Below the pieces are notes generated by a model. The model saw only the letters and a list, made by a program, of their open reading frames with translations, had not been told where the DNA came from and ran no database searches. A stretch of 64,000 nt of DNA from Styela clava (Eukaryota): the NCBI RefSeq assembly GCF_964204865.1, contig NC_135259.1, positions 11,594,001 to 11,658,000 on the forward strand. Reading direction: 5' to 3'. Made by a program: the position numbers and the translations under genes. Positions 1 through 38,100 of this stretch are shown here, in pieces (the stretch's first letter is position 1; every line of letters begins with the position of its first letter).

Positions 1-443
1 ATCATACTCGATCGAAAGCTACGTTTTGAATTGAAATCTTAATAACTTTTGTGTAAGGTTCAGTTTATGAATATTTAGAAGGCCATGTTCCATTTTTCTT
101 ATCAATAGATCATGGAAATAAAAATCAGAAGTTCTTATAGTACAGGAAGTTTTATTGTTCTTTAATGCTAGAATTCTGTAGCCAATGAAAATATTATCTG
201 GCTTCAGGTAATTCAAAATACCTGGTTCAACGTTGACGAAAGTTAATGCTCAAAATGTGAGCATAATTAAAATATATTTTCACTTGGCTTTTGTTTTGAA
301 AAAGCTCAATCATTGAACTTTGAATCATACCATTCGAGCCGTTTATATGGAGCTAGAGTAGTTCAGAGGTATACGATTTGCTCACGTCCATTTCTGGTTT
401 TTGTTCATACCCGTTTAACTTTAACAGATTAATTGTTTTGTAG

Positions 444-1632
444 GTTAAACGAGAACCTGAAGGCTCAACAGTTCGATACACTAAATGGATTAATGAGATT
501 TCCCAGGAACAACTTTATACACAAATTTATACATCAAATGGACCATCAGTTGTTATGCCAACATGGTTTTGTCACAGAAATGTTTATGATAAAGTTGGTG
601 GTTTCAATGAGGGAGGAAAAGGAGTACCAGAGGATTACTTGTTCTTCTTGGAACATTTGAAATTGGGAGGAAAGATACTTAGAGTGGATAGAGTTTTACT
701 TATGTACAGGTTGGCTCACAAAGTTTTCAATATTCTCCATAGTTGGATACCTAGTATTGCTTAGGTCATTGCTATTGAGTGATCCACTAATTTGTTGGTT
801 AATGATTTTGCATAAGATGACTTGTACTCAACTAACTGCCACAGAGAATTAGCTCAGTCCTTCAACTCGAGGTTTGTGTACTTATACCTGACACTCGTCA
901 TAACCATCTCTCGATCGCAAGTTATAAACCATATGCGGATATTTATTTGTGATGAGATGAATTTTTTGCCTTGCAAGCGCTCGCTAGTTGCAGTATCACC
1001 CACTACCCAGGATCAGAAATATTCAAAGTATTTATTTCCCCATCAGACCGGATTATGGATGAAGTGTTATAAATCATATGATTAAGTTGAGACTCCAAAT
1101 CCATATTTGCTTATATAAGACCTTTGCTGGGCTATTATTATGTTTGCTTGAAATAGAAATACTCAATATAAGTTTTATTGTTTTCCAGTAATATTTATCA
1201 AAAGCTCTATACTGTCATTGGTAACTTTTTTCTAGACACCATCCAGATGCTACTACTGCATCTGTGTCAGAAAATACAATTTGGAAGATTCGAATTGAGG
1301 TAATTCAAGAAAGAGTATTGAAAGACTGGAAGCAATTTACAATTTGGAATGCTGGGAAGCAAGGACGTAAATTTTATCGGGACTTGACTGATGAAAATCG
1401 AGAAAAAGTTTCAGCATTTTGTGATGTTGATACAAAAAAGATAGACAAGGGAGTTTATATTTTCGAAAATTCCCCTTTGAAAGTGAAACCCAGAGTACCT
1501 ATTTTACATTTTTCTAAAGCGGTAAAACCGTTCGTTATCTGTATGAAATTGGATTTGACAGGTGGTGAATTTGAGAAAAACTTAAATTCTTTGAATCTTG
1601 TGGAAGGCGTGGATTATTTTCATTTCAACTGA
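444..1632 (+). CDS. B3GNTL1: Queuosine-tRNA galactosyltransferase (B3GNTL1/QTGAL), 3' two exons: 444-709, 1236-1632; 5' part not identified in window
   Basis: Spliced frame reads [17 protein letters not shown]...[16 protein letters not shown]...[12 protein letters not shown]...YR|HHPDATT...[14 protein letters not shown]...AFCDVD...[33 protein letters not shown]. This matches the recalled C-terminal half of human B3GNTL1. GT/AG sites are phase-compatible; AATAAA at 1918-1923. Confidence 0.93.
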
Positions 1633-2030
1633 ATCTTTGGAAGTTTTGCTAACGTAGTACATTTATTTTCAGTGGCAATACTTTTTTTTATATTTTTGAG
1701 ATACTCATTTTAACAGTTTTATGGTGCATTACTTAACAATTTTAAATCGAGAGTTAACATGAGTTATTGGGTATAATCTCCTTATTACATATTTTATAAA
1801 TGTTTATGTGAGCACTTGTTGCTGGCATGGTCCTGTGTTCCGGCAAACAGCATCTTCATGACCTATCAAATGTAATTACTATAAGACCATAATGGTTTGT
1901 TTACTTTATGCAAAGCAAATAAATGTACGGGCATGAAGTGTCTTAAAGTATATCATCTAATTCTATCGTACTCACACCACAGTTATTTTATTGTAAATAA
2001 GTTAACTAAATAGAGAGGATACTTACATCA

Positions 2031-3281
2031 ATGCAATCAGCAATTTCTTTCAGCATTTTTCAAGATATCCAAAGACAAAAACATGACACATATATCATCC
2101 ATTTCAAGATGTAAGTGGGTAGTAATTTTTATTGGTCTTGCCTTGCAGGTTGTCGTTTACGACTTTGTAGACGTTCTTCCAGTCTTACAACCACAAACTA
2201 TGCAGCTCTCTAGCCAAGTTTATTAGCTTTTGTGAAAGCATTCAACAAAATATATAGACGCATGAAATCCAAATTGGGCTAATTCCATTTTTCTAGTTTT
2301 GAGAAAAACGCAAAAAACGTTTTTTATTTCTCTAATACCTTACATCGAGGATGTCTAGTTTTTATGGTCCACCTAAGTTAGATGGTATAAAAAAATTTGT
2401 GCTCCGCCCCAATTTTTTTTGGACTTGACCCTTTTTGGCTCTCAATTTTATTGGACTTAGGGTCCCTTTATTATGTTATTATAGAGGCTGGTATGGACTT
2501 AGCGCTTTGTATTATATTTTTTCAGAGGAGCTATGTCCAAAAAAAGGACTTAGCCCCAACTTACAATGCAGTTATCCAGAGCTAAGTCCACTATAGTAGA
2601 CACAGCTCTGTTTAGTTCTCAAATGCCCTAAAAAAAGCAGGGTTATGTCCATAGCTGTCTTGAGACCTAGAGATAAGGCAAATAGACCAAAATGTAGAGC
2701 TAAGTCCAGGAAAATCAGCAATTGAAAAATGTCATTTTTTGGAAAAGTGGACTGTTTGGTTTTGAGGTGTCGATATGTTCGAGCGATGGGGTTCAGCATT
2801 GCTCGTTATCCCTCAAACAGGGACATAGGTTTCTTAATCTTTTGCAGCCCAACAAGTGGTTCAATCATTTTTCTGCTCAATAAATTGCCTGTTACGAATA
2901 TGTATATTATGTGGATCATTTTTATTTTCATATTTCAGAATTTGTCAGCCGGCCGATATCAAACTTGATGAAAAACAAGCAGAAATTGAGATCTATAAAT
3001 CCATGTCAACATTGCATGGGCAGGTTAGTAGCCTTAATAAGCCTAACGTGGTCATCCTTGTTTTTAGCACAGACTCCCATAAAGTGAAACAAATTTTTTT
3101 GCTTTAGGCTGGGGTTGCATTCAGTCGAGAGATGGTGGAATACAATGAGACAGAAATGACTGGTTCAATTGAGATTTCAACAAAGGCGGTTTCAAGATTA
3201 TGGGGTGCTCTCACATTGAAGAGTAGTGTAGAAGGCGGCAGATGTGCTATACGAGTCCTCAACATAGTACCTCATGTATAA
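2031..3281 (+). CDS. RPP14: Ribonuclease P/MRP subunit p14 homologue (Rpp14/Pop5 family), 3 exons: 2031-2110, 2939-3023, 3108-3281 (112 aa)
   Basis: Canonical GT-AG introns with matching phases (2, 0) give MQSAISFSIFQDIQRQKHDTYIIHFKIICQPADIKLDEKQAEIEIYKSMSTLHGQAGVAFSREMVEYNETEMTGSIEISTKAVSRLWGALTLKSSVEGGRCAIRVLNIVPHV*. The segments LHGQAG, RLWGALTL and RCAIRVL parallel human RPP14 LFGEVD, KLWSSLTL and KCAFRVI. AATAAA at 3360-3365. The start codon is the least certain part. Confidence 0.85.
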
Positions 3282-3564
3282 CAAACACTGCCGTAACCAC
3301 AGTATAATAGCAGGAAGAACAATGCCACAATGAAAAATTATGTGGTTGATTGTATTTGGAATAAAAAGACCATGATGTATACTGAACTTATTTGCAATAT
3401 AGTATTGGAAAGAAATATGATGTTGATTAGGCTAATTGCATAGGACGATATATTCGCACATGGAATAGATATCACATGTGATGTCCAAGAATGTTAGTTT
3501 CAATGATTAATCATCTGCTTCTAATAAATTTTATAATGTTGATAATTATCTCAATTCATTTCAT

Positions 3565-6500
3565 CTACTTCGGGACGCGAGTTGTCTTCATCAGTGGTTG
3601 GTTGAAAAGAAATTTTTCAAACATCGTATATGCGTAACTCGGTGCCCATTGAGGAACCATATGTCCAGAACCCTAGAAAAGGTTTGTAAGGAATGAATAT
3701 CACATAATCAGAAAGCCTGGTTATGTTGTTAGCTTACAGATATTTATTGATATCTGCGACAAATGCACACTAGTGTGAATTAAAATTCCATAAAAACTAC
3801 AAATTCATTTTATTGATGGCTCCTGATTAGATGAATAGAAGATAATAATGCTTGCAATATTTACCTTAGATGAGTAAAGCCAAATGAAAATCCATATGCA
3901 AGACGTAGGGAGATTTTTTATAATAAAGAATACAATATAGAAAGGTTTTAAACCTATGAACTATGCATATACTTTTCTTTAAACCAGACTTGATATCAAA
4001 TTTGGTACTCACTCTGATAGTAGTGTAGGTAAGTTGCTTGAATGCTCGAGTAAATCCGGCTACTTGTCCATCAACATACCATGGTACACGATCATGCACT
4101 GGTGGAAGTCCGAGAGAGTCCACGAACCACTCGTCTCCCAGGAAATTACAAGCCATATCAGTGTCTCCGTTGTACACTAGGCCACGTAGTCCAGGAACTG
4201 CCATAAGTTTCTTATATTGTGCCATCATGTCAGAGAATTCGCGTTTGTACTGAGATCCCACATCCTCACTAAAAACAAGGAGTTGAAATCATAATATGTG
4301 CTTCATTGCACTGGGATGTGGGATTGAAGGAATCAGATACATGGGTATGTTCAGCACAGTCCATGCACTGAAACAACTGATTAGCTATTCCGATACCAAA
4401 CATGGACTGGTACAAAAGGTGGTGGTTCGACATATGAAGGAGCAAAATTGATCAGACATGATAAATGGCTGATACTAGATTGGTGACAGCCTGGGAATAA
4501 CAATTTATTGGTTTTCAAGTCCACTAAGAAAGAAAGCATTTGGTTGTTTATGAAGCTTTCTACATTTGTAGAGAACTATTACTTGATATCATTTTTAAAA
4601 TGTGTCAATTATTTTTCAATGCAAATTTAATTTAATATGTCTTTTTTACCTTGCACCAAATGTTCTTGAGGCTATAATGTTTACTTGTTTGTGGGCGAGT
4701 AATTGAGTGAACAGTTAGCATTCTGGAGATATATAACATCATTTAATCAGAGCTTCGCCTATGAAATGAACAGGGAATCTATATCCTGATTTTATCAAAG
4801 GCCACGCTCCTATACACGCACGCACTTAAACAACAAAAGAAAAAAAAACATCATTGAATTGTTATTGAATATACCCATGCAGGTACATACAAGTAATAAG
4901 GTAACACAGCTACGATATTGATGAAATATTAGACTCTGTGGTCAACACTATTTTGTACACTTGTACTTGCAAATATCCCATTTGGGAAGATGGCTTGGTA
5001 TGTGAAGAGCTTTTCGGACATCCGGTTTATTCAGATAATTCTTTTGTGCAGTAGAATTTATGCATGGAGGAGTTTCACGAAGAAGTGAATTGGCATATGG
5101 CATCTGCAAGATAAAGTGAGGTGTTTGTAGAGATGCTGAATCAAGATTACTGGATTAAATTATCACGATTCAGAGCAGGAGCCTTGGAATTTTGGAGGAG
5201 CCAGAGCTACCAAAAATATTAGTGGCTCCAGCTCCTAACGATATAATTATTTCTCCACATTTACAATTTTGTAATACTTCAAACAAATACTAAACTCTAT
5301 TCCTTTGATATTTCAATTTTTTATATTTGATTATTTATATAAATTTTTAGATTTGAAGTTAAATTTATACATCAATAACATCCAAAAAGTAATTTGGGCT
5401 AATGTTTCAGGGTGTGGTCATGCTAATAGGCTAAAAAATTAATTAAGCTCTAGAGCTGGAGCCTTCAGACGCAGATCCTATCATTCAAAAAGCACTACCT
5501 CAGTTTACCTTTGTTGAGAGCAGCTTCTTACGAAATCCTGCATCAAGATTTCGAAACAAATTTGCCATTGTAAATTTATATGTTTTCTGTCTCTGACTAC
5601 CGCCATCACAATCCATGTATAAAGCATATGTATTCAATCCACTGCTGTAGACTATTTCCATGACATTTTGTACCTGTGAGAAACAACAACAATTATGCAT
5701 TTAAGCAAGCTCAGTTCTTATCAAAATTCATGCACATAGCACACCAAGACAGAAATAGCCTAGCACAGTGGTTCCCAACCTTTTATGGGTATTCATAGTA
5801 TTATTTTGATTGGTATATTCCAAATCCCATTATAATCAAACAATGAATGCACAAGTGAAAAACACACCCTGTGAAATAACCTCATCAGATAACGAAACTA
5901 AGGCGAACTGGGGATTTCCTTGTAAAACGAGCAAGGGCAAGATGTGTTTAAGCATCATTAAATCTTTTTACATTCCAGAATATTTTGTTCCTAAATTAAA
6001 CAAACAATGTAATGGGATGCATTAGGTACTTACATAATCTCCACAAGCAGAATTTCTTGGCTCATGAAACGAGCAGTTATCTCTGGTAAATCCACCTACA
6101 CAACATGTACTAAGAAGTTTATTCCACAATCTGAAAAAATAACAAAATACAATGCAACCTAGGATTGAAAAATATAAATATTCTTTTTTGAAATATTTTT
6201 GGCGAAGGTCGTTTTGTTTTTCAAATACCTCAGTTTTGAACTTTTGATATAGGAAGAGGAAAGTCTATAGGACGGCTTACCATATGGCGAACTACGGCCT
6301 CTCGTCCAGTTACCATTCCATGTCGGGTGCGGGATCAGTTAGATATTTGTTTTTAGAAGCATGAACTTGGTGGTGGAGGAAGCCGTGACCGTCCGGTGGT
6401 TACGTGAACCCTACTGCGGCGAGGAGTCCAGCAATCCTCTCGTTCATAACTATCCCCGCAGGGTAATCAGAGGTGTGGTGGCAAACGTATTCCTAGCGCT

Positions 6501-9500: not shown

Positions 9501-10070
9501 AATACTTTAATAAGAAATCTTGGTAAATACAGAATAACTATTTTATCTGGATATCTCCAATACTGATATACAACTAAACATAGGTCACGAAGGTTTTCAA
9601 CTCAAAATGATAAGAAATCTAACAAGGTCATAATCAATTATGCTCATAGTTCTTCAAGTCCCATTGGGAAAAAGCATTTTACAATATATCATATGGTCCA
9701 AAATCTGTTATAATAATGTGGGATTTTATTTTGAGTAATAATTTCATTCAATTTCGAAGTATACAGCTGATAACTGAGACTTGAAAATTGAAAAACACTA
9801 AAATATCAATCAACAAAATCCACTTCAATTCAAGCGGGCAAAAAATTGCACTCAATTAAATATTCCCGATAAAAATCAATAGAAATTTCTTTACCAATAA
9901 TGAAGATGCTTAGTTCCAGAAGCTTGCAAATATCCAGAATATTGTTTGAATTTTGGAAGAGTTGACAAACCAGGTAATTCCGTGATCAAATCTTCTTGAG
10001 GAGCTGCGTTTGTACAAGCAACCGTAAAACAAAAAATTCCAAACAAAGCCAAAGTATACCCACCCATCAT
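3565..10070 (-). CDS. CTSA: Cathepsin A / lysosomal protective protein (S10 serine carboxypeptidase), 10 exons: 9895-10070, 9072-9183, 8540-8677, 7715-7870, 6719-6810, 6034-6130, 5509-5673, 4967-5103, 4013-4268, 3565-3672 (478 aa)
   Basis: Signal peptide followed by [29 protein letters not shown], catalytic [30 protein letters not shown] and GSGHMVP. All introns are GT-AG and phase-consistent. Confidence 0.96.
6251..6525 (-). mobile_element. tRNA-derived SINE, second copy with B box deleted, in a CTSA intron
   Basis: Reverse complement aligns with the 15283-15600 copy (GGTGTGGCTCAT..., GGTCACGGCTTCCTCCACCA, CCCGACATGGA) and lacks the GGTTCGAATCC segment. Confidence 0.8.
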
Positions 10071-12180
10071 TAGTTTAATATTTATTAAACAGAATAAACT
10101 TAAATATAAACTACAACAAGACAATGCATAAAAAATTATGAACATATGTGTTTTATTCATTACACATTCAGATGACTACAGTTGAGAGTGCTGACAAAAA
10201 ATTGACATTTATTTCAGAGTTTCTCGTGGAGAAATCAGAAATAAGTTGACAGAATTCAGTCAGAGAAGCATAATACCAATAAATGACAATTAAATCAAGC
10301 TTGTATTTAGTTTCAAAAAAAGTTTAGGATTTTCAGAAAACTTTTTGAAAATACAGATGAATAGATTTATCAAATTTTGAGGAATTTTCTTATTTTATAC
10401 TAACTTGTTAAAATAAAATCTGACATATTACCTATTCAAGATTAAGTATCGCCCAATGTCATCAAAATATACCTATTTGCTCATTTCCTATTTTTTTCTC
10501 ACGATATTGTTCTTTTTCAAAAAGATTTGAAAAAAAAAGTGAAAAAGCATATCGTTTCGGCTCTCATAATGAATGGCAAAAAAGTTACATAAAAGAGATA
10601 GAAAATCTTTTATTATATATGTGTAAATAAAAAAGATATTGCAGACAAAATTACCATAATTGCTCTCCTTTATAATAAGTGGTATATAAAACAAAACTAA
10701 TTGAAGTGAGTATTATATTAAATAAAAGATGGCCACAAGCCACAGCAAAGAATATTTCAGAATTCTAGTCCCAATCAATTTCATATTCAGTACTTTAATA
10801 TTATCTATCTTCACCTACGGTAAACAAAACATATTATTAAACAAACTTTTTTTTCACTTTTGATACAATTATTGAATGTACTGAGTATCTTTCCCTTTGA
10901 AATAAGTATGATTACATTTTGTTCCAAATTTAGAATTTAACTTTTCAATTTGAAAATCAATAATGGGCCTACTTATTGTACCGACGCTATTGATAAAACT
11001 ACCTACGATCCATTAGCACCAGTAGGCTATATATTTATCAAAAAACCTTACTAAGAAGAAATAAAAAGTAGAATGATAAATATGAAAAAACTTGTTGCAC
11101 GTTACAAATCTAGCTAATCTACATAGAAAGAATCCTCAGTTTTACATTTTGCATCATAATTTATTTAGCTCATGAATATTTTAAATTTAAATTGGTTTAA
11201 CATTGAATGTGTTTTCACTCAAATAATGCTCTTTTAGATTAATTAAAAGTTTTGAATACATGTAGAACTTTCGATAAAATCAGATAACCTTACTCGAACA
11301 AGTTGAAATTAAGCAAGATAAAAATATTCCAAATACCGTAATTTTAATATATTTTTCAAGTTTTTTTAAACACATAGAAAAAGCCAATTTGAAATCACAT
11401 TGTAAAATTATGTCAATAAACCGAACCAATATTGATATGGAGTTTTCACAAAGATTTAAAGCATATGATGTCATTCTTGCTTATAGAGCACAAACATTCA
11501 CCATACGAGAAAAAAATGTATGGCTATGCCTGTATAGAAATAAACGTAAGTATTCATATGAAGTATTGCGCTTAGAACAATAAATTTGCCACCTGCACAA
11601 ACTTAGGAAAGTGTTAGTAATACAAAGACAATAAATAGCTGAATATAAAATAAAATGCTTGTTAGCATTATCATATTGAACTAACATAGTTTGTTCCACA
11701 TTTTAATAAATCATTTCTGAAATTCTGTTATACACTACAATTAAATAAGTACTGGTGCGGTGACATTACATGCGTTTATAGCCAACAAATAATAGCTTTT
11801 ACATATCGCAGCAAACAACCAAACATTTATACACAGTTGTTATTGTCAGAAAAGAAATTCATGATCATATGTACTTGATTTCATTGACATACTTACATCG
11901 ATCAAAAAGATAAAAGATGTAAAACAATATGACATAAATCTGATTATAAATTACAACAGTAAAACATATTCACTTGTTGAATAAACAGGGATGTAAGGAA
12001 ATCATTATCTGAATGGGGTTTTGAAAATATCTGTAAATGTTGCTTATTGTAAAAATAATTGACTGCCTAAGAGGCGGTAAAATTATGGTTGGTATCAAAA
12101 TCTTAAAGATCGACCATATCTAAACATAACACATTGACACAAACTTTACAACAACATAACAAATGTAAACAATTGTTTCA

Positions 12181-14256
12181 TCAACTTTTATTTGTTTGTA
12201 ATTTACTAGAAAACCACGAGCTTAGAGATGTTTTAGCAGATCCAATAGCACTTCCAAGATATCTTCCTGTATTAACTATTGTATCATTTGCGTTTGATAA
12301 TGCGCCCTCAATTTTTCTGCCTTGCTCACTGTTTTGCAATCGATGATGCAATCGTAACTTCATATCATTGATTGAATATTGTGCATGAAATGGATGTTGA
12401 TATTCAGATTCACCATCAATCACTTTGTGATCTCCTGTCTTCCATATTCTATAGTTTTTTGTGCGTTTCCAAGATGCTAAAAATGCCTCATTATAATCTT
12501 GTAACAGTTTTGGGTCTATCTCATCTTGGATCGTAATTGAAAGCATTTTTTGTAAATATTCTTCAAATAAACTCCGCAGCCATTCGTCTCCTCCTTTCCA
12601 CACTGTTGCCACATTATGAAAAACATCTGCATCATCATCATCTTCACAAATATTCGAAACAATATACTCCGCAAAACGCAAGTCGGCAGAAGACAAAGCA
12701 AGTTGTCTTTGAAGCGATAAATCATGGAAAATGATTTCAGAATTTTCGACGTCGATAACAACATCAGAGAGTTCTTTACGAGTTTTGAATAAAATATTTG
12801 TGGCACCCACAACAAATCCTTTTCTTGAACCTTGGTTTAATAGATCATGATGTTGTAATGAAATATATGGAAGACATAAATTCCCATCTGTAAATATATT
12901 CAGTGGAAATCCATAATCATCCAAATTATATGAAGCCGGTTTTAGGTTATCGTATAACAATGTATCCTCAACTTGTGTAGTTTGTAAGGTCTGTGGGCTT
13001 ATCTTCTCCGGAGAATCCATTGCCATTTCAAGCCTTGCATTTCCCAGTTTAAGAATGTAATTTTCCTCATCATCATGCTCTGGATCTAAGTGATGATAGG
13101 CAGGTGAATCTTCCATTTGTTCATTGGTTTCAGGACTCTCTTGAGCAGGTCTAAAAAATCCGAGTTTGCCGGCAATTCTAGTAGCAATACCACTAGATCG
13201 TTTGATACTCTGCCCATCTAGTGGAGGCTTACTAATATCTGTATCATCTGTTTTTAGACTTCCCAAAATTACTTCATTGGGAAATTCGTCATTATCAAGT
13301 GGTTTTTCAAGTAATTCAAAGCCTTGTTCGTCTGCTTCAGATTTCTCATGACTTTCAGATTCTTCAGCTGTATTCAATACAATATCCTCTTCCATAGAAT
13401 CAGAACTACTTTCATCTTTTATTACATTTTTGAGCAAGCCATTAACACTGGATGGATTGACAGTATCTACAACAATTTCCAGTTTTGATTCACTTTCATC
13501 CTGAATATTTTCATCTTTGGAGATATTTTTGTTGTCAGGGATCACAGTGCATTCAGAAAGACCAACTTCAATCATGCGAGGAAACAGTGAAAGGAGTGAT
13601 AATAAAGCGCCAACTAATTCACTGGCAGGTGTTGCATAAAATACAACACGTTTTTCCAGTAAAATTAGTTTGAATAGAATGAGCAATTTGTGTTTAAAAT
13701 TAGTCAGTAACTTTCTTACAGACAATCCAAAAAATAAATGTGACTCATCGGGTACGCTGAGTGACGCATTGATGTGATCATACAATTCTTGCAAAACATT
13801 TTTCTGTGAAAAATTTTCCAAAAAGGCATTTGTTATGACTGGCAGTTGTAGTTTTGCGTGAATTAAGCCAAATGCAGGTACTTTACTCAATATGACAACA
13901 CTTTTCTGTACTGTACCACGAGTGATGTCAGCGTCCCTTTGGGTTAATTGGTTGGCGTCTACCTGTCGACAATATGACACACAGTACACTGTTTGCTTCA
14001 ACTCAAACTCTTTTCTTGGTGGCAAGTGAAAATAAACAACGTCCTCTGGAAAGTTATGCGCACCATCCGGCATGGCAAGATATGGTAGAAACTTCCATTC
14101 TTCGGGCAAAAACAGCTTGTCCCCGGACTCGCAACTCTCCTTTAAAGGCGGATACGCATACTCCAAAACGCAACCCTTCTTATGATGAAAGCCGATCAAA
14201 AATACATGGTGAAGATTGCCTTGCTTCGTGAAGACTCCGCCCAAATCTTCCGCCAT
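12181..14256 (-). CDS. AVL9: Late secretory pathway protein AVL9 homologue (DENN-like), single coding exon, 691 aa
   Basis: Motifs GFHHKKGC, LPYLAMPDGAHN, SYCRQ, TRGTVQKSV, ILFKLILLEKRV, LCLPYISLQ, VGATNILF, LSSADLRF, WKGGDEWLR and HPF. First ATG is at 14256; the ORF track starts at an upstream GTG. Confidence 0.95.
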   Translation of the reverse strand: MAEDLGGVFTKQGNLHHVFLIGFHHKKGCVLEYAYPPLKESCESGDKLFLPEEWKFLPYLAMPDGAHNFPEDVVYFHLPPRKEFELKQTVYCVSYCRQVDANQLTQRDADITRGTVQKSVVILSKVPAFGLIHAKLQLPVITNAFLENFSQKNVLQELYDHINASLSVPDESHLFFGLSVRKLLTNFKHKLLILFKLILLEKRVVFYATPASELVGALLSLLSLFPRMIEVGLSECTVIPDNKNISKDENIQDESESKLEIVVDTVNPSSVNGLLKNVIKDESSSDSMEEDIVLNTAEESESHEKSEADEQGFELLEKPLDNDEFPNEVILGSLKTDDTDISKPPLDGQSIKRSSGIATRIAGKLGFFRPAQESPETNEQMEDSPAYHHLDPEHDDEENYILKLGNARLEMAMDSPEKISPQTLQTTQVEDTLLYDNLKPASYNLDDYGFPLNIFTDGNLCLPYISLQHHDLLNQGSRKGFVVGATNILFKTRKELSDVVIDVENSEIIFHDLSLQRQLALSSADLRFAEYIVSNICEDDDDADVFHNVATVWKGGDEWLRSLFEEYLQKMLSITIQDEIDPKLLQDYNEAFLASWKRTKNYRIWKTGDHKVIDGESEYQHPFHAQYSINDMKLRLHHRLQNSEQGRKIEGALSNANDTIVNTGRYLGSAIGSAKTSLSSWFSSKLQTNKS

Positions 14257-14616
14257 CACTAACTGACTGACGACAGGCGGGCACGAATTTGAATGCTAAC
14301 CTAATGCTTTACCTAATGGGCTCTCGTACAAAACGCTCAACTAGACAAGTGAGTCTCGTGACCGCCAGTCGCTTATTTGTTTGTCCGCAGCCGTTGAGGG
14401 GATTTCCCTATCTATCCCAGCATGGAATTGTTCGAAAAGTATATTCACTTTGGAAACCATAAGATCCTACTTCGACTATGAAATTTCTGTGTGTTTGTTG
14501 GGTACAAAATATAACTATAGATCCCTTTGTTATTATGTTGTTATTGGCGAAAGTATTCGTTTTCTTGTTGTTATGGTTGTTGTGGAAAGATCGGATTTCC
14601 CTTCAACTGGATCGAT

Positions 14617-19281: not shown

Positions 19282-22200
19282 CTACCAGCCGCTAGCTTCT
19301 GCTCCTTTGTCACGAGTGTCAGAAAATGCGTAGATAGCGGAAGAGTCACATTTGATTGCATTCACTCGGCCCATTTTACATGCTTCCTCCTGTAGAATAC
19401 GATTGTTTGCGTATGATCAGAGTTATACATAGCTATATTGGGATGAATATACCGCAAAACTAAGTTAATACAGGAATGTTAAATTTTACCAGCGTAGAAG
19501 TCTAACTCGGAAGAATATTGTTAAAATTTTGAAATGAAAAAAAATATATTAGTTATTTAAATACAAACCTTGCTCCTTTGTTTGAAGATTTTCTAAGTTA
19601 CAGATGAAAAAGTATCTACCAAACTTTACAATAGTAGAAAAAAAGCATCTTTGTAATTCCATGTGGAAGAAAAAAAAGACCAATACATGAGTTTTTCCTC
19701 TAGAATACTTCCTAGGACCTAGGACACGCTTTTTATCACATAGACATAAGGCTCAAAAGTGTCTAACTAGTTTCTCCCACCTGATCAATGTATACCACAA
19801 TCGATAGTAAATTGTCTTTATACTCTAAAGCAGGGGTCACCAACCCGTTGCCCACGGGCAACAAGTCGCCCGTGAAGACCACATGAGTCGCCCGCGGGTC
19901 TGTTCCAAAATAAACTTAATAACGGCGCTGATAAGTAAGCTACAACAATTAATTTTTGCCATGTTATTCTTGTAAAAAATCACACTTATATAACACTATG
20001 TTAAATATTATGGTAACGATCAATATAACTTTTATTTGACCGCAGTAATGTGACGGATCATTTAATACTCTCCCAATTATGACATCACACAGATGGTCAA
20101 CTTCCACGAACCTGCGGCTTTCGTATCCGTTGATTTGTGGAGCAGCAATGCCAATAATACAATTATTGATTTCAAAGAAAATTGAAAAAAAACCTACCAT
20201 TTTTACGATGAACGGAAGGTGGATTTCCTTTTACCGCCGTGAAAACAGCTCGCGTATGTCTCATTTGCGTGGAGTTTATAGCGACGACAAAGCGAAGAGA
20301 CATTTCACATCTTGTCACTATATATCCATTGGTCAGCGCAGTACGGGCAGAAAAAGCTGCCTTTTAATTCAAACGGCAATTCTATGTTACGAGATGGCTT
20401 GTACCAGTGTTTGGTACAAGCCATCTTAATGAATCAACATTTTTGGGCATGAACTTCACAAGGAACTAAGCACGGAATACGCCATACTGAGGAAGACCCG
20501 CTCAGAGTTGCATTGTCAAGTTACACGCTGGAGTACAACACACTGGTGGAAAGCATTAGACCAGATTTGTTCGATTTGGGTTTTCTCCTTGTTGAAAACA
20601 AGATATTCATATTAGTTAAATGTGTTTGTAAATGTAATATTCGGCAGTTCAACTGTTAAGTTCATTTCATCTTAGGGTTATGCAGGGTGTTTGTAAAAAA
20701 AAAAGTAGGTACACATTGTGGTTTCCGAAAATATTATTTTAGTGATCACTTTAAAATCAATTTGAAAAACACTTAGTTTGAAAATGGAAGGGTCATTGCT
20801 AGTAATTTATTTGCTACGTTGTGATAATTGTTTGATTTCCTGAAGAATCCTAAAGTTTATCAGTGTTTTTACTTGACTAAATATCAGTAATTATCAATAA
20901 TTGAAGGTTAATCGAGCAAATTGACCCGAATTGAAAATTTTAAAGTGTGCATTGAACTGGTAGCCCTCGGCTTAATCGTTACCCAGAATGTATCCCTCGG
21001 CTTCGAAAAGGTTGGTGACCCTGCTCTAAAGTCTAAACAGCGTCAGTAGCCCCGCTGTGCGTGATTTAATTCCGGTGGTATCAGGAAAAATGATAAACAC
21101 AAACTAATATTTTTGTAAATACTTCAGCACTAATACTACTAACTGCTTATATCCATGAACTATTGAATCCCACAAAACCTGGCATATATATTCGAACAGC
21201 AAGGGTTTGAAGCATATAATAACCTCATGTTCTTGGGAAAGTGTTTTTATTTTGTACTAAAATAAAAGCTGCTATCGTTTATTTATACTTGGCAATTTTA
21301 TTATCCAATTATTCAAATGAATTCAATAATAATTCATATATATATAATATATACTTAGAAACTTACAACGTTGTGTCCCATCTCTTTCAAGTTTTGAATA
21401 ATATCACCATCGAAACCAGCTTCGTAATAAAGAACATCCGGTACCAAAAAATCATGAAATCGTTTGTCTTTTATTGCATCACCAATATCATTTATACCAA
21501 AATACAAGGATCTGAAAAGTATAGATGAACAAGTAGAAGTGTAAATGTTCAGCTATACGAAAACTTGCATCATTGTTAACTGAGAATATGAAATGTATCC
21601 ATCAACTGGCGAAACAAGTCGGTTCACTGAATATCCGAGTTTTGAGCTCGAAGACCGGGACATTTAGATTGTCAAAATAGGTATAGTGACTAACAGTTTC
21701 GAGTCGTATCTGTTTTTTCAAATAGACCATTTGCCAAAGGGGAATTTTTTCTTCCTTCGCGGCTATCGAAAAACATCAATAGTATATATAACAAAAAAAC
21801 TGCAATAATCAATCTAATATACCTACTTAAGCATAACATTGGCCACTGCTCCTGGAATTCGGAAACCTCCCGAACCCCCAATGATAAAAGCTGGATCGCC
21901 ATTGCTGTCCAGAAATATAGCAGGCGTCATACAAGATAATGGACGTTTACCTCCCTCTATTTGGTTTGTCGCAGACAAATGAGAATCATGTTCATTGTCG
22001 CCATCTTGAGGAATGTAGAAAAGAAATTTATAGTACTGATTCAATGTTCCATACATCAGTGAACGTGATATTTATGCAAATACGACATACTAAGAAATGA
22101 AAATAACATGAATTCATTTAAAAATAATTAAATACATACTTGGATACGAAAAATCTGCCATTTCGTTGTTAAATACGATTCCTGTAGAAGGCGACATTAT

Positions 22201-25200
22201 TCGAGATCCCCATATAAAATCTATCGTTGAAGTTAAAGCGACAGCGTTTTTGTCTGGGTCAATCACTGATATATGCACGGTGGATGACATATGAGAGTCC
22301 AAAATCTTTGCACCATAATATACAGGATCATGAAACGTTCTATCATCAAGAATTTTATTCCGAGCAGAACGCGAATAATCTCCTGATACAATTTGATTTT
22401 GAATATTCAATACAGTTTGATCATAATCGGGATCCCCCATGCTGTATTGGGCACCAAAAGCATGTCGGAAGGCTTCATCAGTACGATGACACTGCAATGC
22501 AGGGTTCCTTTTGTAATCATCCGGTTTCATGTTAAATAAATCCATAACAGAAAGGATTGAGCCCAACACTGGTCCACCTGAAGGCAACGGCGGCGCATGC
22601 ATTGTATATCCAGCGTTAGCAAGTTTCATCGTGATTGTAGGTTTTTCAAGCACTGAATAATCCTGAAATGAAATTTTTTTCTACATCCATCAAAAGCGAT
22701 TAAAGTAAATACTGCATAATACTACTGAATCTGCATGTGGTTTTCATCCAAATCAGGCATCGTTGCGTAATACCTCGCACCACTGTCTTTCATAATTTAT
22801 TAAAAAAAATGAACAAGACTTACCATACTTGGATATTCAATTAAGTTTATACTAAACACGAGAATAGATTTTTTAATTAATACAACAAATACTGACCTAC
22901 AGAAAAATTTAGTATAACTCACTGTTAAATCTTGCTTTGTCAGAATTCCCCCTTGACATTGAATTTCGTGAATCATATTATCAGCAATTTCACCATTGTA
23001 GAAAACATCTATGCCTTGTTTTTGTATCTTTTCTAGTGTATCAGCAAGTAGAGGATTTTTCACTGTATCTCCTTCTTGTTTAACCTAGAAATATATGATG
23101 AGTCATTTTTTATTACTTTATCAATTATTGTTCAAATTTATGTCGCTAAATCACAAAAGTAAGTTTATAAAAGTAATTTACTGATGTAAACACTATGCTA
23201 CAGAAATTATGGGAATAAATTTTTATTTGTAAAAAATGGATTAAATGTGCCACCTTACTCTAACACTACTAGTGGAAATTTAAACGTTCACTGCAATCTA
23301 TCTGATATGGAATAAGTTTTCATTCCATGTATCCAAACCAATGCAATAGTTGAAACATAGTAACTAGACATAAAATAGACCAAGGATTGTTTTTGTTATT
23401 TTTGTAGTAAAACCGCATTTTTCTTTATGAGATGAAGTAGGTATCTTATGCAACGTTTTTAATTTAGAAATTTCTTCTGTGGTACGAGCCGTACCACAGA
23501 TTTGAAAATAGTTGTATATACTATATTTGTAATGAAGGACAACATTTTAACATTCGCGGGCAGGAGTGCTAACAGTATAAGTTTGTTTCTCACAAGCGCA
23601 CCAGTCACCCTCTATAGTACCATCTGCTGTTTTATTGATGCTACTTACTCCAGTTTTATCTTCAGTACAATAAACATCACTAAATGTTGAATTCGGATCC
23701 TTTTTTATAACATTGTCGTAAAGATTTTCCAACATTATAGCCATTTGCTTACTAACTTTGAACCCATTTCTAGCTTTATCAATTGCAGGTTGGAATAACT
23801 CTCCCCAAGATAAATTTCCTCCGTATTTCTTAAATGCGTACCTGTAGTATAAATGAATTCTATCGCTTATCGTGATTAAATTATATAGGCCCTAATAAAA
23901 TTTTCTTCGACATCTCTGTTCAATGTAATAACAAAATGTTTTACAACATTCTTGATTTAAACATATGAAAGAATTACCAAATGTTTCGTTAAAGTTTGCA
24001 AATAGTATAGATATATAGACCACTGGAAAACTTCGACATTCGTCCACAAGTCAATCTCTAATTTTTATCGGATCTACCAAAAGCAATACTGAAATGCTAC
24101 GTGTTAAAAATCATAAATTAAAAATCAGGGAAGGATTAACAAAAACGGGGAGGATTAACAAGAAAAATTTATTCAGCTAAATAACTTACTCCAGGCCTTT
24201 GAGTTCCCCTGGTACCGCAATAAACTTTGCACCTCTGATATAATCTCCCATTTCCAAAAACATTTCACGAGTTGCACCCGCGGGTGCCTTTTCTCTGGCT
24301 ATGATGGATGTGGTTGATTTTGTTGACGAATTGTAGATAGTCATTATACATCCTCCACCTGAATGAGTGTTGATAATCAACTGTTCACAACCGCTAAATC
24401 AATTTTGCATTTCTTATTACCCGAATCTAACAGCACTCATGCACGTATTTAGTTCCCTTTGTATCAGTATTTACATCAGAATACCGGTGTACACGAAAAA
24501 ATGCAACGCACTTCCTTATGTTTTCTCTTACCGTGAATAATGAATTACTCTATTCCTCAAACAGTGCTTCCCAACCAGTGGCGTATCTGCATAAAATGGC
24601 GCCCATGGCAACGTTTGAAAATGCACCCCCTTGATCGTTGACTGACTATTTTTATTAACAGCTTTTGTTGGAATTACGTTATTATTTAAATACAAATTGC
24701 TGATATTTTTAATTCCGAATTATATTATTGGAACATTTTAAAACTAAAACTTTTCACCGTTTTTGCGCCCCTATCCAAACGGCGCCCATGGCGGGAGCCC
24801 TGGCTGCCATACCCTAGATATGCCACTGTTCCCAACCAGTGGATCGCGATGCATTTCCAACACTTTCCAAAATGGGTCGCGACGCACTTCCAAATGGTGT
24901 ATACATTTTACAATTAGATCGGAAAATCGTGACATCATCATTACTTGACAATAATCTCATGAAACAATTAACAGTTGGAATTATTCGTTGTGTCTCGTTA
25001 ATAATTTTAGTACGCCCCTACAAGTGTTGGAAAGTGTAGGTAGGCTACTAGGTTGATTGATAATTTGTTGGATCAGAGTAGACAATAGCAAATACGCCGG
25101 TTTATGTAGTTGTTAATCTTACGTCGAATGAGTTGCATTTTGAATACTGGGTAAACCAGAGGTAATATACTTTATTTAAATTTCATAATTTTGTTTGATT

Positions 25201-32176: not shown

Positions 32177-35100
32177 CTACCAACCGCTAGATCCAGCCCC
32201 TCTGTCACGCAAGTCAGAAAATGCGTAGATAGTAGAGGAGTCGACTTTAATTGCATTCACACGACTAAGTTTAAGTGTTTCCTCCTGTAGAATACAATTG
32301 TATGATTAGTTTGGATTGAAACAGCAATCAACTATATTGGTATATCAACATTGCACACCTAAATCCAAACTAATCGAAAAACGTTTTAGCCATTTTATGT
32401 CACTTTTAAAAATTGTATTAAAATTTTAAAATTAAAAAGTGCGCCCTGGAATATATATATAACTTTTTTATCACAATGAATTGGCAATCCCATACCATAT
32501 ACAACGGGTAGTATTCACGGTGTGGCACCCAGAACATTCGCACCTGTATACTTTTGCACCCACAGACACTTCACGCATACATTTTCACCCATAGATTTTA
32601 TCATCTGCATATAAATTGCAACCGCAGACATTTGCACTCATGGACATTTGCATCCACGAACATTTGCACCCATGGACGTTTGAGCCCATTTGCACTCAGG
32701 GACATTTGCACCCAAGAACATTTACAACCATGGACATTTGACCCGCGTACATTTGTACCGACAGACATTTGCATACACGTACATATGCACCTAGCGAGCG
32801 GGTGCAAATGTATATGGGCGCGAAAGTAATGAAACCACAAATTTCACTTAGCACACTTGTACATGCTTATCTTTGCAGCCACGGAAATTTGCCCCCGTGG
32901 ACAATTACACTCATACATTTGCACTCTCCAAACTTTAGCATACCCATACAGATTGCACTCTTGAACAGTTGTGCCTATGGACATTTACACCCACGTACAT
33001 TTCGGCCACAGACATTTGCACCCATGGACATATAGACCCACGTATATTTGCGAATGTACAAAAGTATGCAGGCAAAAATGTCCTAGGTGCTGCAGTTGTG
33101 CAAATGTGCGGTTACCTTTTGGTTCATACGTGACAATTTAATGGAAACACCAATATAATATTGTGTCCTCGGTTTTAAAAACTTACAACTTTGTGTCCCA
33201 TCTTTTTCAAGTTTTGAATAATTCCGCTATTAAAACCAGGTTCATAATGAAGAGCATCCGGTATCAAAGAATCATAAAATCGTTTGTCTTTGATTGCATC
33301 GCCAAGATCATTTATACCGAAATACAAGGATCTAAAAAGTATCAAGTTGTGTGTAAGTGTAAATGTTCACCTATATGTTCACCCATATGAATCACCTCAT
33401 CAAGCTTTATTGGGATATAAAATATATCAGCCGTGAAGTCAAGTATAAGGACTAAAATTTTTGAGTCGTAAGTAATTTAATATTATAATTGACTGAATTC
33501 CCAAAAAAGGTAACATCCTTATTAGGGAAAAAACGAGATAGAAAAAGCCAAACGGCAATTTAACGTCATTTTAGATTGGCAACGAATTTTTTTTATGCGG
33601 CATTTGGAAGATATTCATCAACATTGGTAAAAACTCAGCCTTACATTATTCAATCGAATAAACCACCTACTTAAGCATAACCGTTGCCATTGCTGCTGGA
33701 ATTCGCAAACCTCCCGAACTTCCAATAATAAAAGCAGGATCATTATTGCTATCCAAAAATATAGAAGGCGCCATACAAGATAATGGACGTTTACCTCCAT
33801 CTATTTGGTTTGACGTGGACAAGTGATAATCATGCTTCATGTCGCCGTCTGGATAAATGTACAGAAAATAATTACAGCAGCAAATTCAATTCTCCATACA
33901 TGTCAGTGAAAATTAATATTTAAACAAATATGACATGGCATGATATGTTATGAAAGTCATAAAAATTCATATGAAAATAATAAAATACATACTTGGGTAT
34001 GAAAAATCTGTCATTTCGTTATTAAATACGATTCCTGTAGAAGCCGACATTACTTGACATCCCCATATATAACCGATCGTTGATGTCAAAGCTACTCCGT
34101 TTTTGTTTGGGTCAATCACAGATATATGTACGGTGGATGACATTCCGGAGTCCAAAACGATTGCGCCATAATATGCCGGATCATGAAATGTTTTGTCGTC
34201 AACAATTTTATTCCGAACAGAACGTGAAAAATTTCCTGACACGATTTCATTTTGTATATTCAGTACAGTTTGATCATAATCGGGATCACCCATGCTGTAC
34301 CGGGCACCATATGCATGTCGAAAGGCCTCGACAGTACGATGACACTGCAATGCGGGATTTCCTTTATAATCGTCTGGTGTAATGTCAAATGAATCCATAA
34401 CAGAAAGGATTGAACCCAACACTGGTCCGGCTGAAGGCAGCGGAGGCACATGCATTGTATAACCAGCGTTAGCAAGATTCATCGTGATTGTAGGTTTTTC
34501 AAGCACTGAATAATCCTTATTAAAATTTCGTTAAATGTCAATATCGAAAACGATGAAAGTAATTATACCTCAATTGAAAGAAGATGAGTCTTGTATTAAC
34601 GAAGTCTGGACCGCGGAACCGTCACACGATATGCCATTTTTCAATTTTGACGACGTCATCACACATAACTTTAAAGTGAAAAACGAATCCCATAGAGCCC
34701 ACAGAAACTCTAGTAATAAATAAAAACCTTCTAACCGACAACAACCACTACCACTGAAAATATCAAAACAACTGGTCCAATAGATAAAGATTTCTTTACA
34801 ACACCAAGAATAAGAATATATATAACGAATTCTAATAACAACAAGAATTTACAAAACGATGCGCAAATCCACCTAGTGTCTAATATAACCACTGACACAA
34901 AGCGAACTTTATTTTAACTCACTATTAAATCTTGCTTCGTCATAATTCCACCTCGACATTGAATTTCATGAATGATATTATCAGCAATTTCGCCATTGTA
35001 GAAAACATCCACGCCTTGTTTTTGAATCTTTTCTAGTGTATCAGCAAGTAGAGGGTTTTTCACTATATCTCCTTCTTGTTTAACCTGGAAAGATGCGACA

Positions 35101-38100
35101 TTTCATCTTGAATACTTTATAAATTTTTGTTCCAATTTCACATCGCCTACTCGCAAATGTAAGTTTAAAAAAGAAGTTTACGAAGGTAAACACTATGTCA
35201 CAGAAATAAGAACCGCAAATTGGGAATCAAGATTATGAAGGTGATTTTTCTTTTTAAAAATTTGCGCGCAACTTAATTTGAACAATACAATGGTTATTAG
35301 TTTTATTTTAACAACCACTGATTCAGACACATTTACATGATCAGTAGCTAAACATGTAGGCATCTCATGCGAGTTTCTTTTCTCAAAAGCGAACCAGTAG
35401 CCACTATCTGAGTTATGTGTTATTTATTTTAATAATTCTACTTACTCCCGTTTTATCCTCGTTGCAATAAACATCACGAAATGTTGAATTCGGATCCTTT
35501 TTTATAACGTTGTCGTAAACATCCCTCAACATTATAGCCATTTGCCCACTAACTTTGAACCCATTTCTAGCTTTATCAATTGCAGGTTGAAATAATTCTC
35601 TCCACGATAGATTTCCCCCGTATTTCTTAAATGCGTAACTGTAGTATATAATAAATTTTATTTCCATCGCTTACGGTGGTTAATGTAAATTAGGTAAATT
35701 TTTTACTTCACATATCTATCCTCCATGGTTATGCACTAACAAATGTTTTACAATATATTGAAGATTAAAAGAACTTAAAAAATATTCTGACACCAGCACC
35801 TAATTGAAAGAATTAACGAATGTTTCGTTAAGGTTTGCAAATAATATATATTAACTGGAAATCTTGAACCTTCGTCCACCAGTTAGTTGATCTCGTTTGT
35901 TTATCGGATCTATTAAGGGCAATAAAAGAATGACAAGTGTTAAAAGATATAAATTATAAAAAAAAATTGCAAACGGGGAGGATTAACAAGAAAACCATAT
36001 TCTGCCTAATAACTCACTCTAAACCCTTGAGTTCACCAGGCACCGCAATAAATTTTGCACCTCGGTTATAATCTCCCATTCCCAGAAACATTTCACGAGT
36101 AGCACCCAAGGGTGCTTTTTCTCTAGCTATGATGGACGTGGTTGATTTTGTTGACGAATTGTAGATGGTCATTATACATCCTCCACCTAAAAGAATGTTG
36201 ACAATCAACTTTTACAACTGGTAAATAAATTTTGAGCAGTCCTTGTTATTTGAAACTCGCACTCACACACGCATTCGTTGGTCACGAATCGACCCTATAA
36301 ATCATTTTTATTGAACTGTTGTTGTAATTAATATTATTTTTGGTATTTTTCTCATAAATTTTCTTTTTATCTACTAGATGAAAAACCTTGAGATTTTCAG
36401 TGTTACAGATTGTGGTTCTCGCTAGAAGCCTATTACTTTTATCTATTTCACAGATTCATGTATGCTCTTTGTTTTGATACTACTTCGTTTTGGTCTTCTT
36501 TGTATTTTTATTTTCGAGAATTTATCTCTTGTTTTGCATAGCATTAGCATTTATATTGGAACAGTAATGTATAGTCTTCACAGAGAATATCCTGTGAATG
36601 CAACTACTGTATGCTATATCGTAGTATACTATATCGTAGAACATTTGCAGGAACAATAAATATTTGCACGAATACTTCAAATGTAGTCATACCTATTCCA
36701 GAATAAAACGGTTCAACGACACCTTGGCACAAAATAACCGCTATTGCTGCATCAACTGCGTTTCCACCTGCTTTCAAAATGTCGCGACCGACTTCTGAGC
36801 ATTCAATTTGACCTATATATATTAAAAGAAGAATCAAATGCTATTATGAGGATGGAAGGTATAGATTCGTAAATACGATACTAGCACGTGGGCGCAAAGG
36901 ATAGTTAAAAGCAGGCGTACATAATTTAATGGAAATAAATTCAGTGAGTTTGTATAGTTCCGCACCGCTGATGTTAGTCAATAAGGAACACTGTCGATAT
37001 TAACTCGATATTCGGCACAGTGCTGGTTGTATCATTTGATGGCTGACCGTACATTTGAACCCATACATTTGCACTCGTATATCCGCGGGTTCAATCTATA
37101 TGAGGGAGCTAAAATTCATGGGTTAGGGTTACTATGGGTTCAAATATCTATAAAAAAAAATCCATAGGTGCAACAGTATGCAGGTGCAGTTGTCGTGGGT
37201 TCAAATGTAAAGGAACCCATTTTATGATTAGGTACCCAGTAAAATACATCGAACAACTGTTTCTAATTGACATTGTTGCGTCATAATGTACCTACTGGCG
37301 CAATCTGGTGTGGGTCTGATGGGCGGGAATTTGAATCGCGTATTTGTTTGCATAACTAGAGTTCGTAATCATTACTAGATGTAACATTGGAATGTTTTTT
37401 GGCGCGAATGTACGCGGGTGAAAATGTACTTAGCGCAAATATCGGTTGGTGCAAATGTACGTGAGTGGAAAGGTAGGCGGATCAGATGCAATCTGCAACT
37501 GAGTGTGAGAGTAGTATGCAGGTTTCAAACCCGAATGCAAGATGATGGAACCTGTTGAGATACCTAAAGTTTGCTGTCAAAGAAGAAAACCCTTTTTTTT
37601 AGCTAAAATTGCGTGGGTCATATCTATGTGAACTGGGATTTTTTAACACTCAACAATATACCGTAAAGGCGTAAAGTATAAGAACGAGAGCGGCTTTGTT
37701 GCATTGAAAAGGTAACGAGGGTTTGTCTTACTGAATTACGTCCTAACATTAAGACTGTTGTCACAAACATCATGCTTGTGTTACTCACTGAGAGATTTGT
37801 TGTAGGCCTACACTACAAAGGTACAAATATTTAGTTAGTTTGTTACATATGCTGGGTTATTTACACTTACACACTTGAACTGGACACAAGTATGGACCTG
37901 ATTCAATGCATTACATGGGAAAATACTGGGATTTATATTGAAGCTATCCTATGACTAAGGACCACTATCTACTTATCTGTGATCCGGGGTCTGGGAGTGT
38001 GATATTTTCAAGGGAAGATCATGATAATCATAAAGAAACAAAAGTGATCTGGGCTGAAAAATCAGACAAGTTTTTCAGTCTAGATTTTCAAGCGTTCGAT

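What the first reader, a model, noticed from the sequence alone, without database searches (positions are those of the whole stretch)
1236..3281. Candidate tRNA-maturation operon: QTGAL followed immediately by RPP14
Seen: the QTGAL stop (1632) and the RPP14 ATG (2031) are 398 bp apart on the same strand. The QTGAL AATAAA (1918-1923) is only ~110 bp before the RPP14 start, with AG dinucleotides at 1947-1948, 1981-1982 and 2012-2013, leaving almost no room for an independent promoter. Known: QTGAL galactosylates queuosine in tRNA-Tyr, RPP14 is an RNase P subunit, and ascidians resolve operons by SL trans-splicing with little or no intercistronic DNA. Inference: two tRNA-processing genes are co-transcribed as a functionally coherent animal operon.
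Basis: partly seen in the sequence, partly recalled or inferred. Interest (0 to 1): 0.7.

Follow-up and report, generated by a model that had tools for sequence, protein, structure and literature searches.

The report
Old sea-squirt operon: QTGAL then RPP14
In the sea squirt Styela clava a tRNA-sugar enzyme gene and an RNase P subunit gene lie 398 bases apart with RNA covering the gap, are numbered as near neighbours in two other sea-squirt orders, and are likely an ordinary leader-spliced operon whose shared tRNA theme is probably coincidence.

Summary
Coordinates and gene names hold: QTGAL (stop 1630-1632), then a spliced 112-aa RPP14 (ATG 2031), in Styela clava, whose genome carries a spliced-leader (SL) gene array. 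RNA contigs from 6 of 6 runs laid (3 studies) cross the predicted junction. The gap is CpG-poor, unlike QTGAL's upstream region. Accession or gene numbers keep the pair together in Clavelina (consecutive) and Ciona (cyclin Q between). A shared transcript resolved by SL trans-splicing is likely (about 0.75-0.8) but not shown: no SL junction was seen, and contigs also merge overlapping transcripts. The best acceptor is the CAG at 1980-1982. Functional coherence is weak: an unrelated cyclin interrupts the pair in Ciona, RPP14's partner POP5 lies on another contig, and among 34 Ciona tRNA-processing genes this is the only close pair of 561 (0.12 expected; about 1 for 100 genes). One point in favour: POP5 also sits next to a tRNA enzyme. 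Verdict: new member of a known kind.

The parts
444..709 (+). QTGAL (B3GNTL1) third coding exon found; two earlier coding exons lie just upstream of the window (L002:9047/9052-9290 and 9829-9980)
   Evidence: tblastn; joint 707/1234 (cut +2, GT..AG) in X1, X5, X9, not X10; single copy
1236..1632 (+). QTGAL last coding exon, stop TGA 1630-1632
1633..1982 (+). Predicted QTGAL 3' UTR; RNA-covered, CpG-poor, strongly different between haplotypes; its 3' end at 1982 is inferred from the Ciona pattern
   Evidence: end not observed
1918..1923 (+).
1957..1982 (+). Predicted trans-splice acceptor: branch-point-like CTAAT 1957-1961, no AG from 1949 to 1980, CAG 1980-1982
   Evidence: prediction only, no SL junction seen
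1983..2030 (+). Predicted 48-nt RPP14 5' UTR behind the leader, free of upstream ATG
2031..2110 (+). RPP14 coding exon 1
   Evidence: joint 2110/2939 GT..AG; protein P0127
2252..2772 (.). Multi-copy repeat inside RPP14 intron 1, absent from one haplotype
   Evidence: skip 2251/2773 in X1; 40 of 114 candidates scored, mostly 83-85% identity
2939..3023 (+). RPP14 coding exon 2
3108..3281 (+). RPP14 coding exon 3, stop TAA 3279-3281
3565..3671 (-). Last coding exon of a convergent cathepsin A-like gene whose RNA is merged with RPP14's in contigs

Best explanation
QTGAL and RPP14 are two separate, spliced, same-strand genes that likely form an ordinary and old ascidian operon, probably kept together by its structure and not by a shared tRNA job. 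Mechanism, step by step. (1) Inferred: one promoter in the CpG-rich, single-copy stretch just upstream of QTGAL's first conserved exon drives a transcript through both genes. (2) Shown: RNA sequence runs unbroken across the gap. (3) Inferred: the 24-nt spliced leader is trans-spliced onto the CAG at 1980-1982, giving a capped RPP14 mRNA with a 48-nt 5' UTR. (4) Inferred from Ciona: the same cut makes QTGAL's 3' end at G1982, with no AATAAA needed and no intercistronic DNA. (5) Inferred: because RPP14 has no promoter of its own, breaks between the genes are selected against, which explains the linkage kept in three ascidian orders.
For: Organism: 100% hit to a Styela clava protein. SL system: leader core found 1801 times against 18 for the reversed control; with a GT donor 136 against 0, mostly in a tandem array on C8; the unit has a TATA box, leader exon and GTAAGT donor at a 1634-nt period. 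RNA: 6 of 6 RNA-like runs (3 studies) hold a contig crossing 1982/1983 with at least 31 nt on each side; X6 and X9 carry stop to ATG in one contig. Promoter signature: 20 CpG in 300 nt upstream of QTGAL (o/e 1.8; single copy) against 5 in the 398-nt gap (o/e 0.55) (Fisher p 3e-4). Acceptor: of 7 AGs behind the last upstream ATG, only 1981 combines CAG, pyrimidine share 0.67 (four confirmed introns 0.56-0.83) and a branch-like motif at -24. The divergent haplotype has 28 listed substitutions in 1682-1954 and 1 in 1955-2025 (p 0.015, boundary chosen after looking). Linkage elsewhere: Clavelina CAK8681489.1 and CAK8681488.1 on one contig; Styela's own older accessions are also consecutive; Ciona KY21.Chr8.424 and .426, while the Styela neighbour cathepsin A maps elsewhere in Ciona. 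Against a tRNA-specific reason: cyclin Q between them in Ciona, 1 close pair of 561, POP5 on C4.
Against: No SL loose end at any AG in 0 of 6 runs, and no poly(A) loose end; I had no positive control that these contigs keep such short tips. Contigs merge independent transcripts: X5 and X9 run on from RPP14 into the opposite-strand cathepsin A gene. The runs are 'RNA?' by the tool's guess, and X1 and X3 look alike and are one study. Ciona has promoters that overlap acceptors and outrons peaking near 100 nt (PMC4691747, passages), so a small internal promoter fits in 398 nt. CpG is a blunt marker: Ciona promoters are only modestly CpG-rich (PMC3333190, abstract), and the 400 nt before the cyclin H ATG, which has a 120-nt gap, have o/e 1.27. 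Strand and distance in Clavelina and Ciona are not visible, and the C. intestinalis RefSeq numbers are 54 apart. The first haplotype carries changes at 1973 and 1995, and the second a 2-nt insertion at 1977. POP5 also lies 257 nt before a prolyl-tRNA synthetase, which favours some tRNA theme.
Confidence: 0.68

Rival explanations
1. RPP14 has its own small promoter inside QTGAL's 3' UTR (with or without a short outron and SL); the two transcripts overlap or read through, and shared regulatory DNA keeps them linked.
For: No SL junction seen; contigs merge overlapping transcripts; promoters overlapping acceptors and roughly 100-nt outrons exist in Ciona (PMC4691747 passages); a 227-bp Botryllus gap with linking transcripts had no SL on the second gene (PMC3691228 passages); lower haplotype divergence at 1955-2025 would also fit a core promoter.
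Against: Gap CpG is at gene-body level; the only TATA-like word is at 1795, in the variable part; a good acceptor sits in the conserved part; in Ciona 12 of 12 unbiased downstream genes of such close pairs were trans-spliced (PMC1488885).
Confidence: 0.17
2. The operon is real and is kept because it couples two steps of tRNA maturation: 5' leader removal by RNase P and galactosylation of queuosine on pre-tRNA-Tyr.
For: Linkage kept across three orders although ascidian synteny is described as largely absent; galQ is already added on intron-bearing pre-tRNA-Tyr in mouse and human (PMC12313893 passages); POP5, the other Rpp14/Pop5-family subunit, lies 257 nt before a prolyl-tRNA synthetase; the MFSD1-cyclin C pair of unrelated function is not numbered together in Ciona (MFSD1 is on an unplaced contig).
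Against: Cyclin Q lies between the genes in Ciona; the other 32 listed tRNA-processing genes are at least 33 IDs from any other, including QTRT1, QTRT2, GTDC1, POP1, POP4, POP5 and RPP30; one close pair is expected 0.12 times for 34 genes and about once for 100; the POP5 run also holds an unrelated UPF0172 gene; Ciona operon members are not tightly co-expressed (PMC1488885); no in vivo link of queuosine enzymes to the RNase P step.
Confidence: 0.12
3. A stable unresolved bicistronic mRNA is translated for both proteins, as for vertebrate RPP14-HTD2.
For: Unbroken contigs and no SL or poly(A) end seen; vertebrate RPP14 is discussed as bicistronic (search listing only; partner name recalled).
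Against: 11 ATGs lie in the gap, which would block scanning to RPP14; the species has SL genes; no HTD2-sized frame follows RPP14 (longest frame 61 aa).
Confidence: 0.03

Closest known systems
Ciona SL-resolved operons (Satou et al. 2006, PMC1488885, parts 3-5 of 7 read; Satou et al. 2008, PMC2760879, section 10 and passages read)
   Same: Same-strand close pair in an ascidian with SL genes; RNA across the boundary; no reliable AATAAA; predicted AG acceptor doubling as the upstream 3' end. About one fifth of Ciona genes (2,909 in 1,310 operons) are so arranged.
   Different: Styela (a stolidobranch) carries a different, 24-nt leader; the SL junction and exact abutment were not shown here; the upstream gene has introns, whereas 60% of Ciona first cistrons are single-exon; Ciona's own copy has cyclin Q between the two genes.
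QTGAL/B3GNTL1 (queuosine-tRNA galactosyltransferase, GT2 family)
   Same: 59-64% identity to eight full-length homologues, several so named, with Pfam PF00535.
   Different: Activity untested in ascidians; the start codon of the Styela gene is unresolved.
RPP14 (RNase P/MRP p14, Rpp14/Pop5 family); vertebrate RPP14-HTD2 bicistron
   Same: Best PDB hit human p14; a separate POP5 exists.
   Different: Fast-evolving (21-32% identity to eight homologues), 112 aa, shorter C-terminus; no second frame behind it.
Botryllus fuhc two-gene locus (PMC3691228, passages read)
   Same: Short gap (227 bp) in a colonial ascidian with linking transcripts.
   Different: There no SL was found and rare read-through was favoured; here that test is still open.

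Membership tests
Ascidian SL-resolved operon | Same-strand neighbouring genes that are separate proteins | tested here: met
Ascidian SL-resolved operon | Species has spliced-leader RNA genes | tested here: met
   no Rfam match for the unit
Ascidian SL-resolved operon | No untranscribed DNA between the mRNAs (under 100 nt) | tested here: inconclusive
   RNA contigs cover the whole gap in 6 of 6 runs, but mRNA ends cannot be read from contigs
Ascidian SL-resolved operon | Downstream mRNA carries the SL at an AG acceptor | tested here: inconclusive
   no SL loose end in 6 runs, no positive control; candidate acceptor predicted
Ascidian SL-resolved operon | Unresolved dicistronic precursor molecules | tested here: inconclusive
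   single contigs in X6 and X9, but contigs also merge the convergent gene
Ascidian SL-resolved operon | Upstream poly(A) added at the acceptor G; no own promoter for the downstream gene | not testable with these tools
   needs raw reads, 3' RACE, TSS-seq; CpG contrast is only indirect
Functionally coherent (pathway) operon | Members confined to one pathway wherever the cluster is kept | tested here: not met
   cyclin Q lies between the genes in Ciona
Functionally coherent (pathway) operon | Pathway genes cluster more than chance | tested here: inconclusive
   1 of 561 pairs, 0.12 expected, pair chosen after the fact; POP5 beside a tRNA synthetase in Styela
Functionally coherent (pathway) operon | Co-regulation of members | not testable with these tools
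   contig depth cannot rank genes
QTGAL (B3GNTL1) | GT2 domain with DxD motif and orthology to named QTGAL proteins | tested here: met
   (motif DAD visible in the alignment; its role recalled)
QTGAL (B3GNTL1) | Galactosylates Q34 of tRNA-Tyr | not testable with these tools
   activity known from vertebrates (PMC12313893 passages)
RPP14 | Rpp14/Pop5 family, closer to p14 than to POP5 | tested here: met
   POP5 is a separate gene

The most novel reading that the evidence does not exclude
Ascidian operons group tRNA-handling genes on purpose: an operon older than the split of the three ascidian orders ties RNase P subunit RPP14 to QTGAL, and the sister subunit POP5 sits in a second tandem with a prolyl-tRNA synthetase, giving a chordate case of pathway-coherent, long-conserved operons.
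Probability: 0.12. Interest if true: 0.62.

Novelty: new member of a known kind. Interest (0 to 1): 0.3.

Why it matters
As an ordinary operon it adds a stolidobranch example to a class mapped mainly in Ciona, and an unusually old one: the pair seems to have outlasted the reshuffling between three ascidian orders. That makes it a handy test locus for how boundary-less operons form the upstream 3' end and how genes such as intronless cyclin Q enter or leave operons. It would matter more only if tRNA genes proved enriched as operon partners. My searches found no held paper naming both genes or Styela with spliced leader; most subscription papers and the Ciona databases were not searchable.

Tried and rejected
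No run is on record as RNA; nine are guesses, of which 6 were laid. Contig depth (X1: QTGAL exons about 65, two gap haplotypes 27+45, RPP14 exon 1 123) first looked like an SL step at 1996. The narrow lay showed it is a haplotype bubble. A step estimate could not separate acceptors, so depth was dropped. Intron stretches without RNA cover (3751-3900 in X1, X5, X9; 2111-2230 in X6, X7) suggest little DNA in those runs but are listed only here. The Ciona 16-nt leader gave 133 hits with one mismatch against 44 for the control, only 2 exact: not this species' leader. No retrocopy of the RPP14 5' end that could record the acceptor. No Rfam match in 1-4500 and no unusual fold of the gap (z 0.69). 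The published Ciona operon list (PMC7986045, file 3, contents and part 1 seen) uses KH numbers that I could not map; gene-name searches in supplements of PMC7986045, PMC6952182 (file 14 not searched) and PMC10810493 found nothing. Matsumoto 2010 (PMC2860165) is not held. Related genomes could not be searched directly, so linkage rests on accession and gene numbers. No outgroup species gave both genes; that the human genes are unlinked is recalled. The word-indexed RPP14 searches returned only the Styela protein. One search's gene list was picked by name prefix; POPDC was dropped as unrelated.

Full report
Observation. The motifs themselves are not beyond chance. AATAAA occurs in 80 of 160 equal tiles of the window, and the last 110 nt hold 7 AGs against a shuffle mean of 5.3.

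Genes and organism. The QTGAL last exon matches a Styela clava B3GNTL1 protein at 100% and named queuosine-tRNA galactosyltransferases at about 66-68%. It is single copy, with two more coding exons just upstream of the window. The second gene has exons 2031-2110, 2939-3023 and 3108-3281 and gives 112 aa. It passes Pfam PF01900, its best PDB hit is human p14, and POP5 is a separate gene on C4. The three introns covered are joined with GT..AG ends in X1, X5 and X9 and not in the DNA run X10.

Trans-splicing machinery. A recalled stolidobranch leader core occurs 1801 times against 18 for the control. Followed by GT it occurs 136 times against 0, largely as an array on C8. Four identical units at a 1634-nt period show a TATA box, a 24-nt exon and a GTAAGT donor. 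An earlier AI note had pointed to such arrays; I checked this myself. The species can therefore resolve operons, an inference from gene structure; Rfam has no match.

RNA across the gap. Six of the nine RNA-like runs were laid (three studies). All six hold a contig crossing 1982/1983 with 31 or more letters each side, and X6 and X9 carry stop to ATG in one contig. This is not proof of one transcript: X5 and X9 continue into the opposite-strand cathepsin A-like gene. No leader or poly(A) loose end appeared in any run. Short tips are often pruned in such assemblies (my knowledge) and I had no positive control, so this is inconclusive, but it leaves the defining feature unshown.

The AATAAA. X1 and X3 (one study) each hold two haplotypes across the gap. 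In the divergent one the hexamer is destroyed, yet it is expressed and also crosses the junction. In Ciona 16 of 18 operons lack the signal, and the upstream poly(A) is added at the G of the acceptor AG (PMC1488885, parts 3-5 read).

The acceptor. Seven AGs lie behind the last upstream ATG. Only 1981-1982 is a CAG with pyrimidine share 0.67, a 34-nt distance from the previous AG and a branch-like CTAAT at -24; four confirmed intron acceptors score 0.56-0.83. The divergent haplotype shows 28 listed substitutions in 1682-1954 and 1 in 1955-2025 (4 of its 33 are not listed), p 0.015 with a boundary chosen after looking. It also has a 2-nt insertion at 1977, and the other haplotype differs at 1973 and 1995.

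Promoter signature. The 300 nt before QTGAL's first conserved exon hold 20 CpG (o/e 1.8) and are single copy apart from one 66-nt weak match; the gap holds 5 in 398 (o/e 0.55). This is indirect. Ciona promoters are only modestly CpG-rich (PMC3333190, abstract), values before eight cyclin ATGs range from 0.32 to 1.43, and Ciona has promoters at acceptors and short outrons (PMC4691747, passages).

Linkage in other ascidians. Styela's older RefSeq numbers for the two proteins are consecutive, which calibrates the method. In a C. robusta table (PMC12258801, supplementary file 4, searched rows only) B3GNTL1 is KY21.Chr8.424, CCNQ .425 and RPP14 .426. These are serial numbers per chromosome (PMC6836712, passages), which I take to follow position. 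Chance of lying within two numbers is about 2e-4. Cathepsin A maps to other Ciona chromosomes, Styela's intronless cyclin Q is on C16, and ascidian synteny is described as largely absent (PMC10950049 and PMC4122922, passages). Strand and distance are not visible in these numbers.

Functional coherence. Of 34 Ciona tRNA-processing genes picked by name, this is the only pair of 561 within two numbers; the next is 33 apart. Chance gives 0.12 such pairs for 34 genes and about 1 for 100. Cyclin Q interrupts the pair in Ciona. Short tandem gaps of unrelated genes are common in Styela: MFSD1 to cyclin C 417 nt, an unknown frame to cyclin H 120 nt. Ciona operon members are not tightly co-expressed. 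On the other side, galQ is added to unspliced pre-tRNA-Tyr (PMC12313893, passages), and POP5 lies 577 nt behind a UPF0172 gene and 257 nt before a prolyl-tRNA synthetase, so both family members neighbour a tRNA enzyme. Housekeeping enrichment of operons explains this most simply (inference).

Verdict. Likely an SL-resolved operon (about 0.75-0.8 in all), probably generic in content (0.68), with tRNA-driven coherence at about 0.12 and an internal promoter at about 0.17. About a fifth of Ciona genes are in operons (PMC2760879, section 10), so this is a new member of a known kind; its age is the most useful new fact. No held paper names both genes or Styela with spliced leader, and the scan's index had no note on this pair. 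PMC7986045 was read in passages plus one supplement part; PMC3691228 in passages; the RPP14-HTD2 papers were seen as a listing only. Interest 0.3.

Noticed in passing
L002:8900-9060 (just upstream of the window) and L003:7872: QTGAL's start codon is unresolved. The database N-terminus fits only one ATG exon in 60 kb upstream, inside a high-copy hAT transposon, so it may be an annotation patch. Candidates: a small exon from the ATG at L002:8901, or a leader-supplied UUG that would be in frame if the acceptor at L002:9050-9051 is used (arithmetic only).
   Followed up: partly
L048:297-3338 (G000:C4): Three same-strand frames without apparent introns in a row: UPF0172 (EMC8/9-like, name recalled), POP5, and a bacterial-type prolyl-tRNA synthetase; gaps 577 and 257 nt; a likely second operon.
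   Followed up: partly
window 2111-2938: RPP14 intron 1 carries a 521-nt multi-copy repeat that one haplotype lacks; that haplotype's intron appears unspliced in contigs of X1 and X3.
   Followed up: partly
window 3282-3671: RPP14 and a convergent cathepsin A-like gene (stop 3565-3567) are bridged by RNA contigs, suggesting overlapping 3' UTRs.
   Followed up: partly
window 10100-14300, minus strand: A 704-codon intronless AVL9 frame lies about 2 kb upstream of the cathepsin A-like gene on the same strand, with a CpG rise only before AVL9: possible operon with a single-exon first gene.
   Followed up: no
window 21800-23900, 33900-36850 (minus), 52200-54200 (plus); 57686-59014: Three gamma-glutamyltranspeptidase genes and an intronless BTB-domain frame.
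   Followed up: no
L038:7-2220 and L047:112-2361: MFSD1 then cyclin C (417-nt gap) and an unnamed 365-aa frame then cyclin H (120-nt gap): further operon candidates.
   Followed up: partly
L004-L011: Seven of eight dispersed leader-core matches lack the GT donor, as expected of leader tags copied back into the genome.
   Followed up: no
L002:6394-8499: A 702-codon intronless frame with a weak Plavaka transposase match ends about 550 nt upstream of QTGAL's first conserved exon on the same strand.
   Followed up: no
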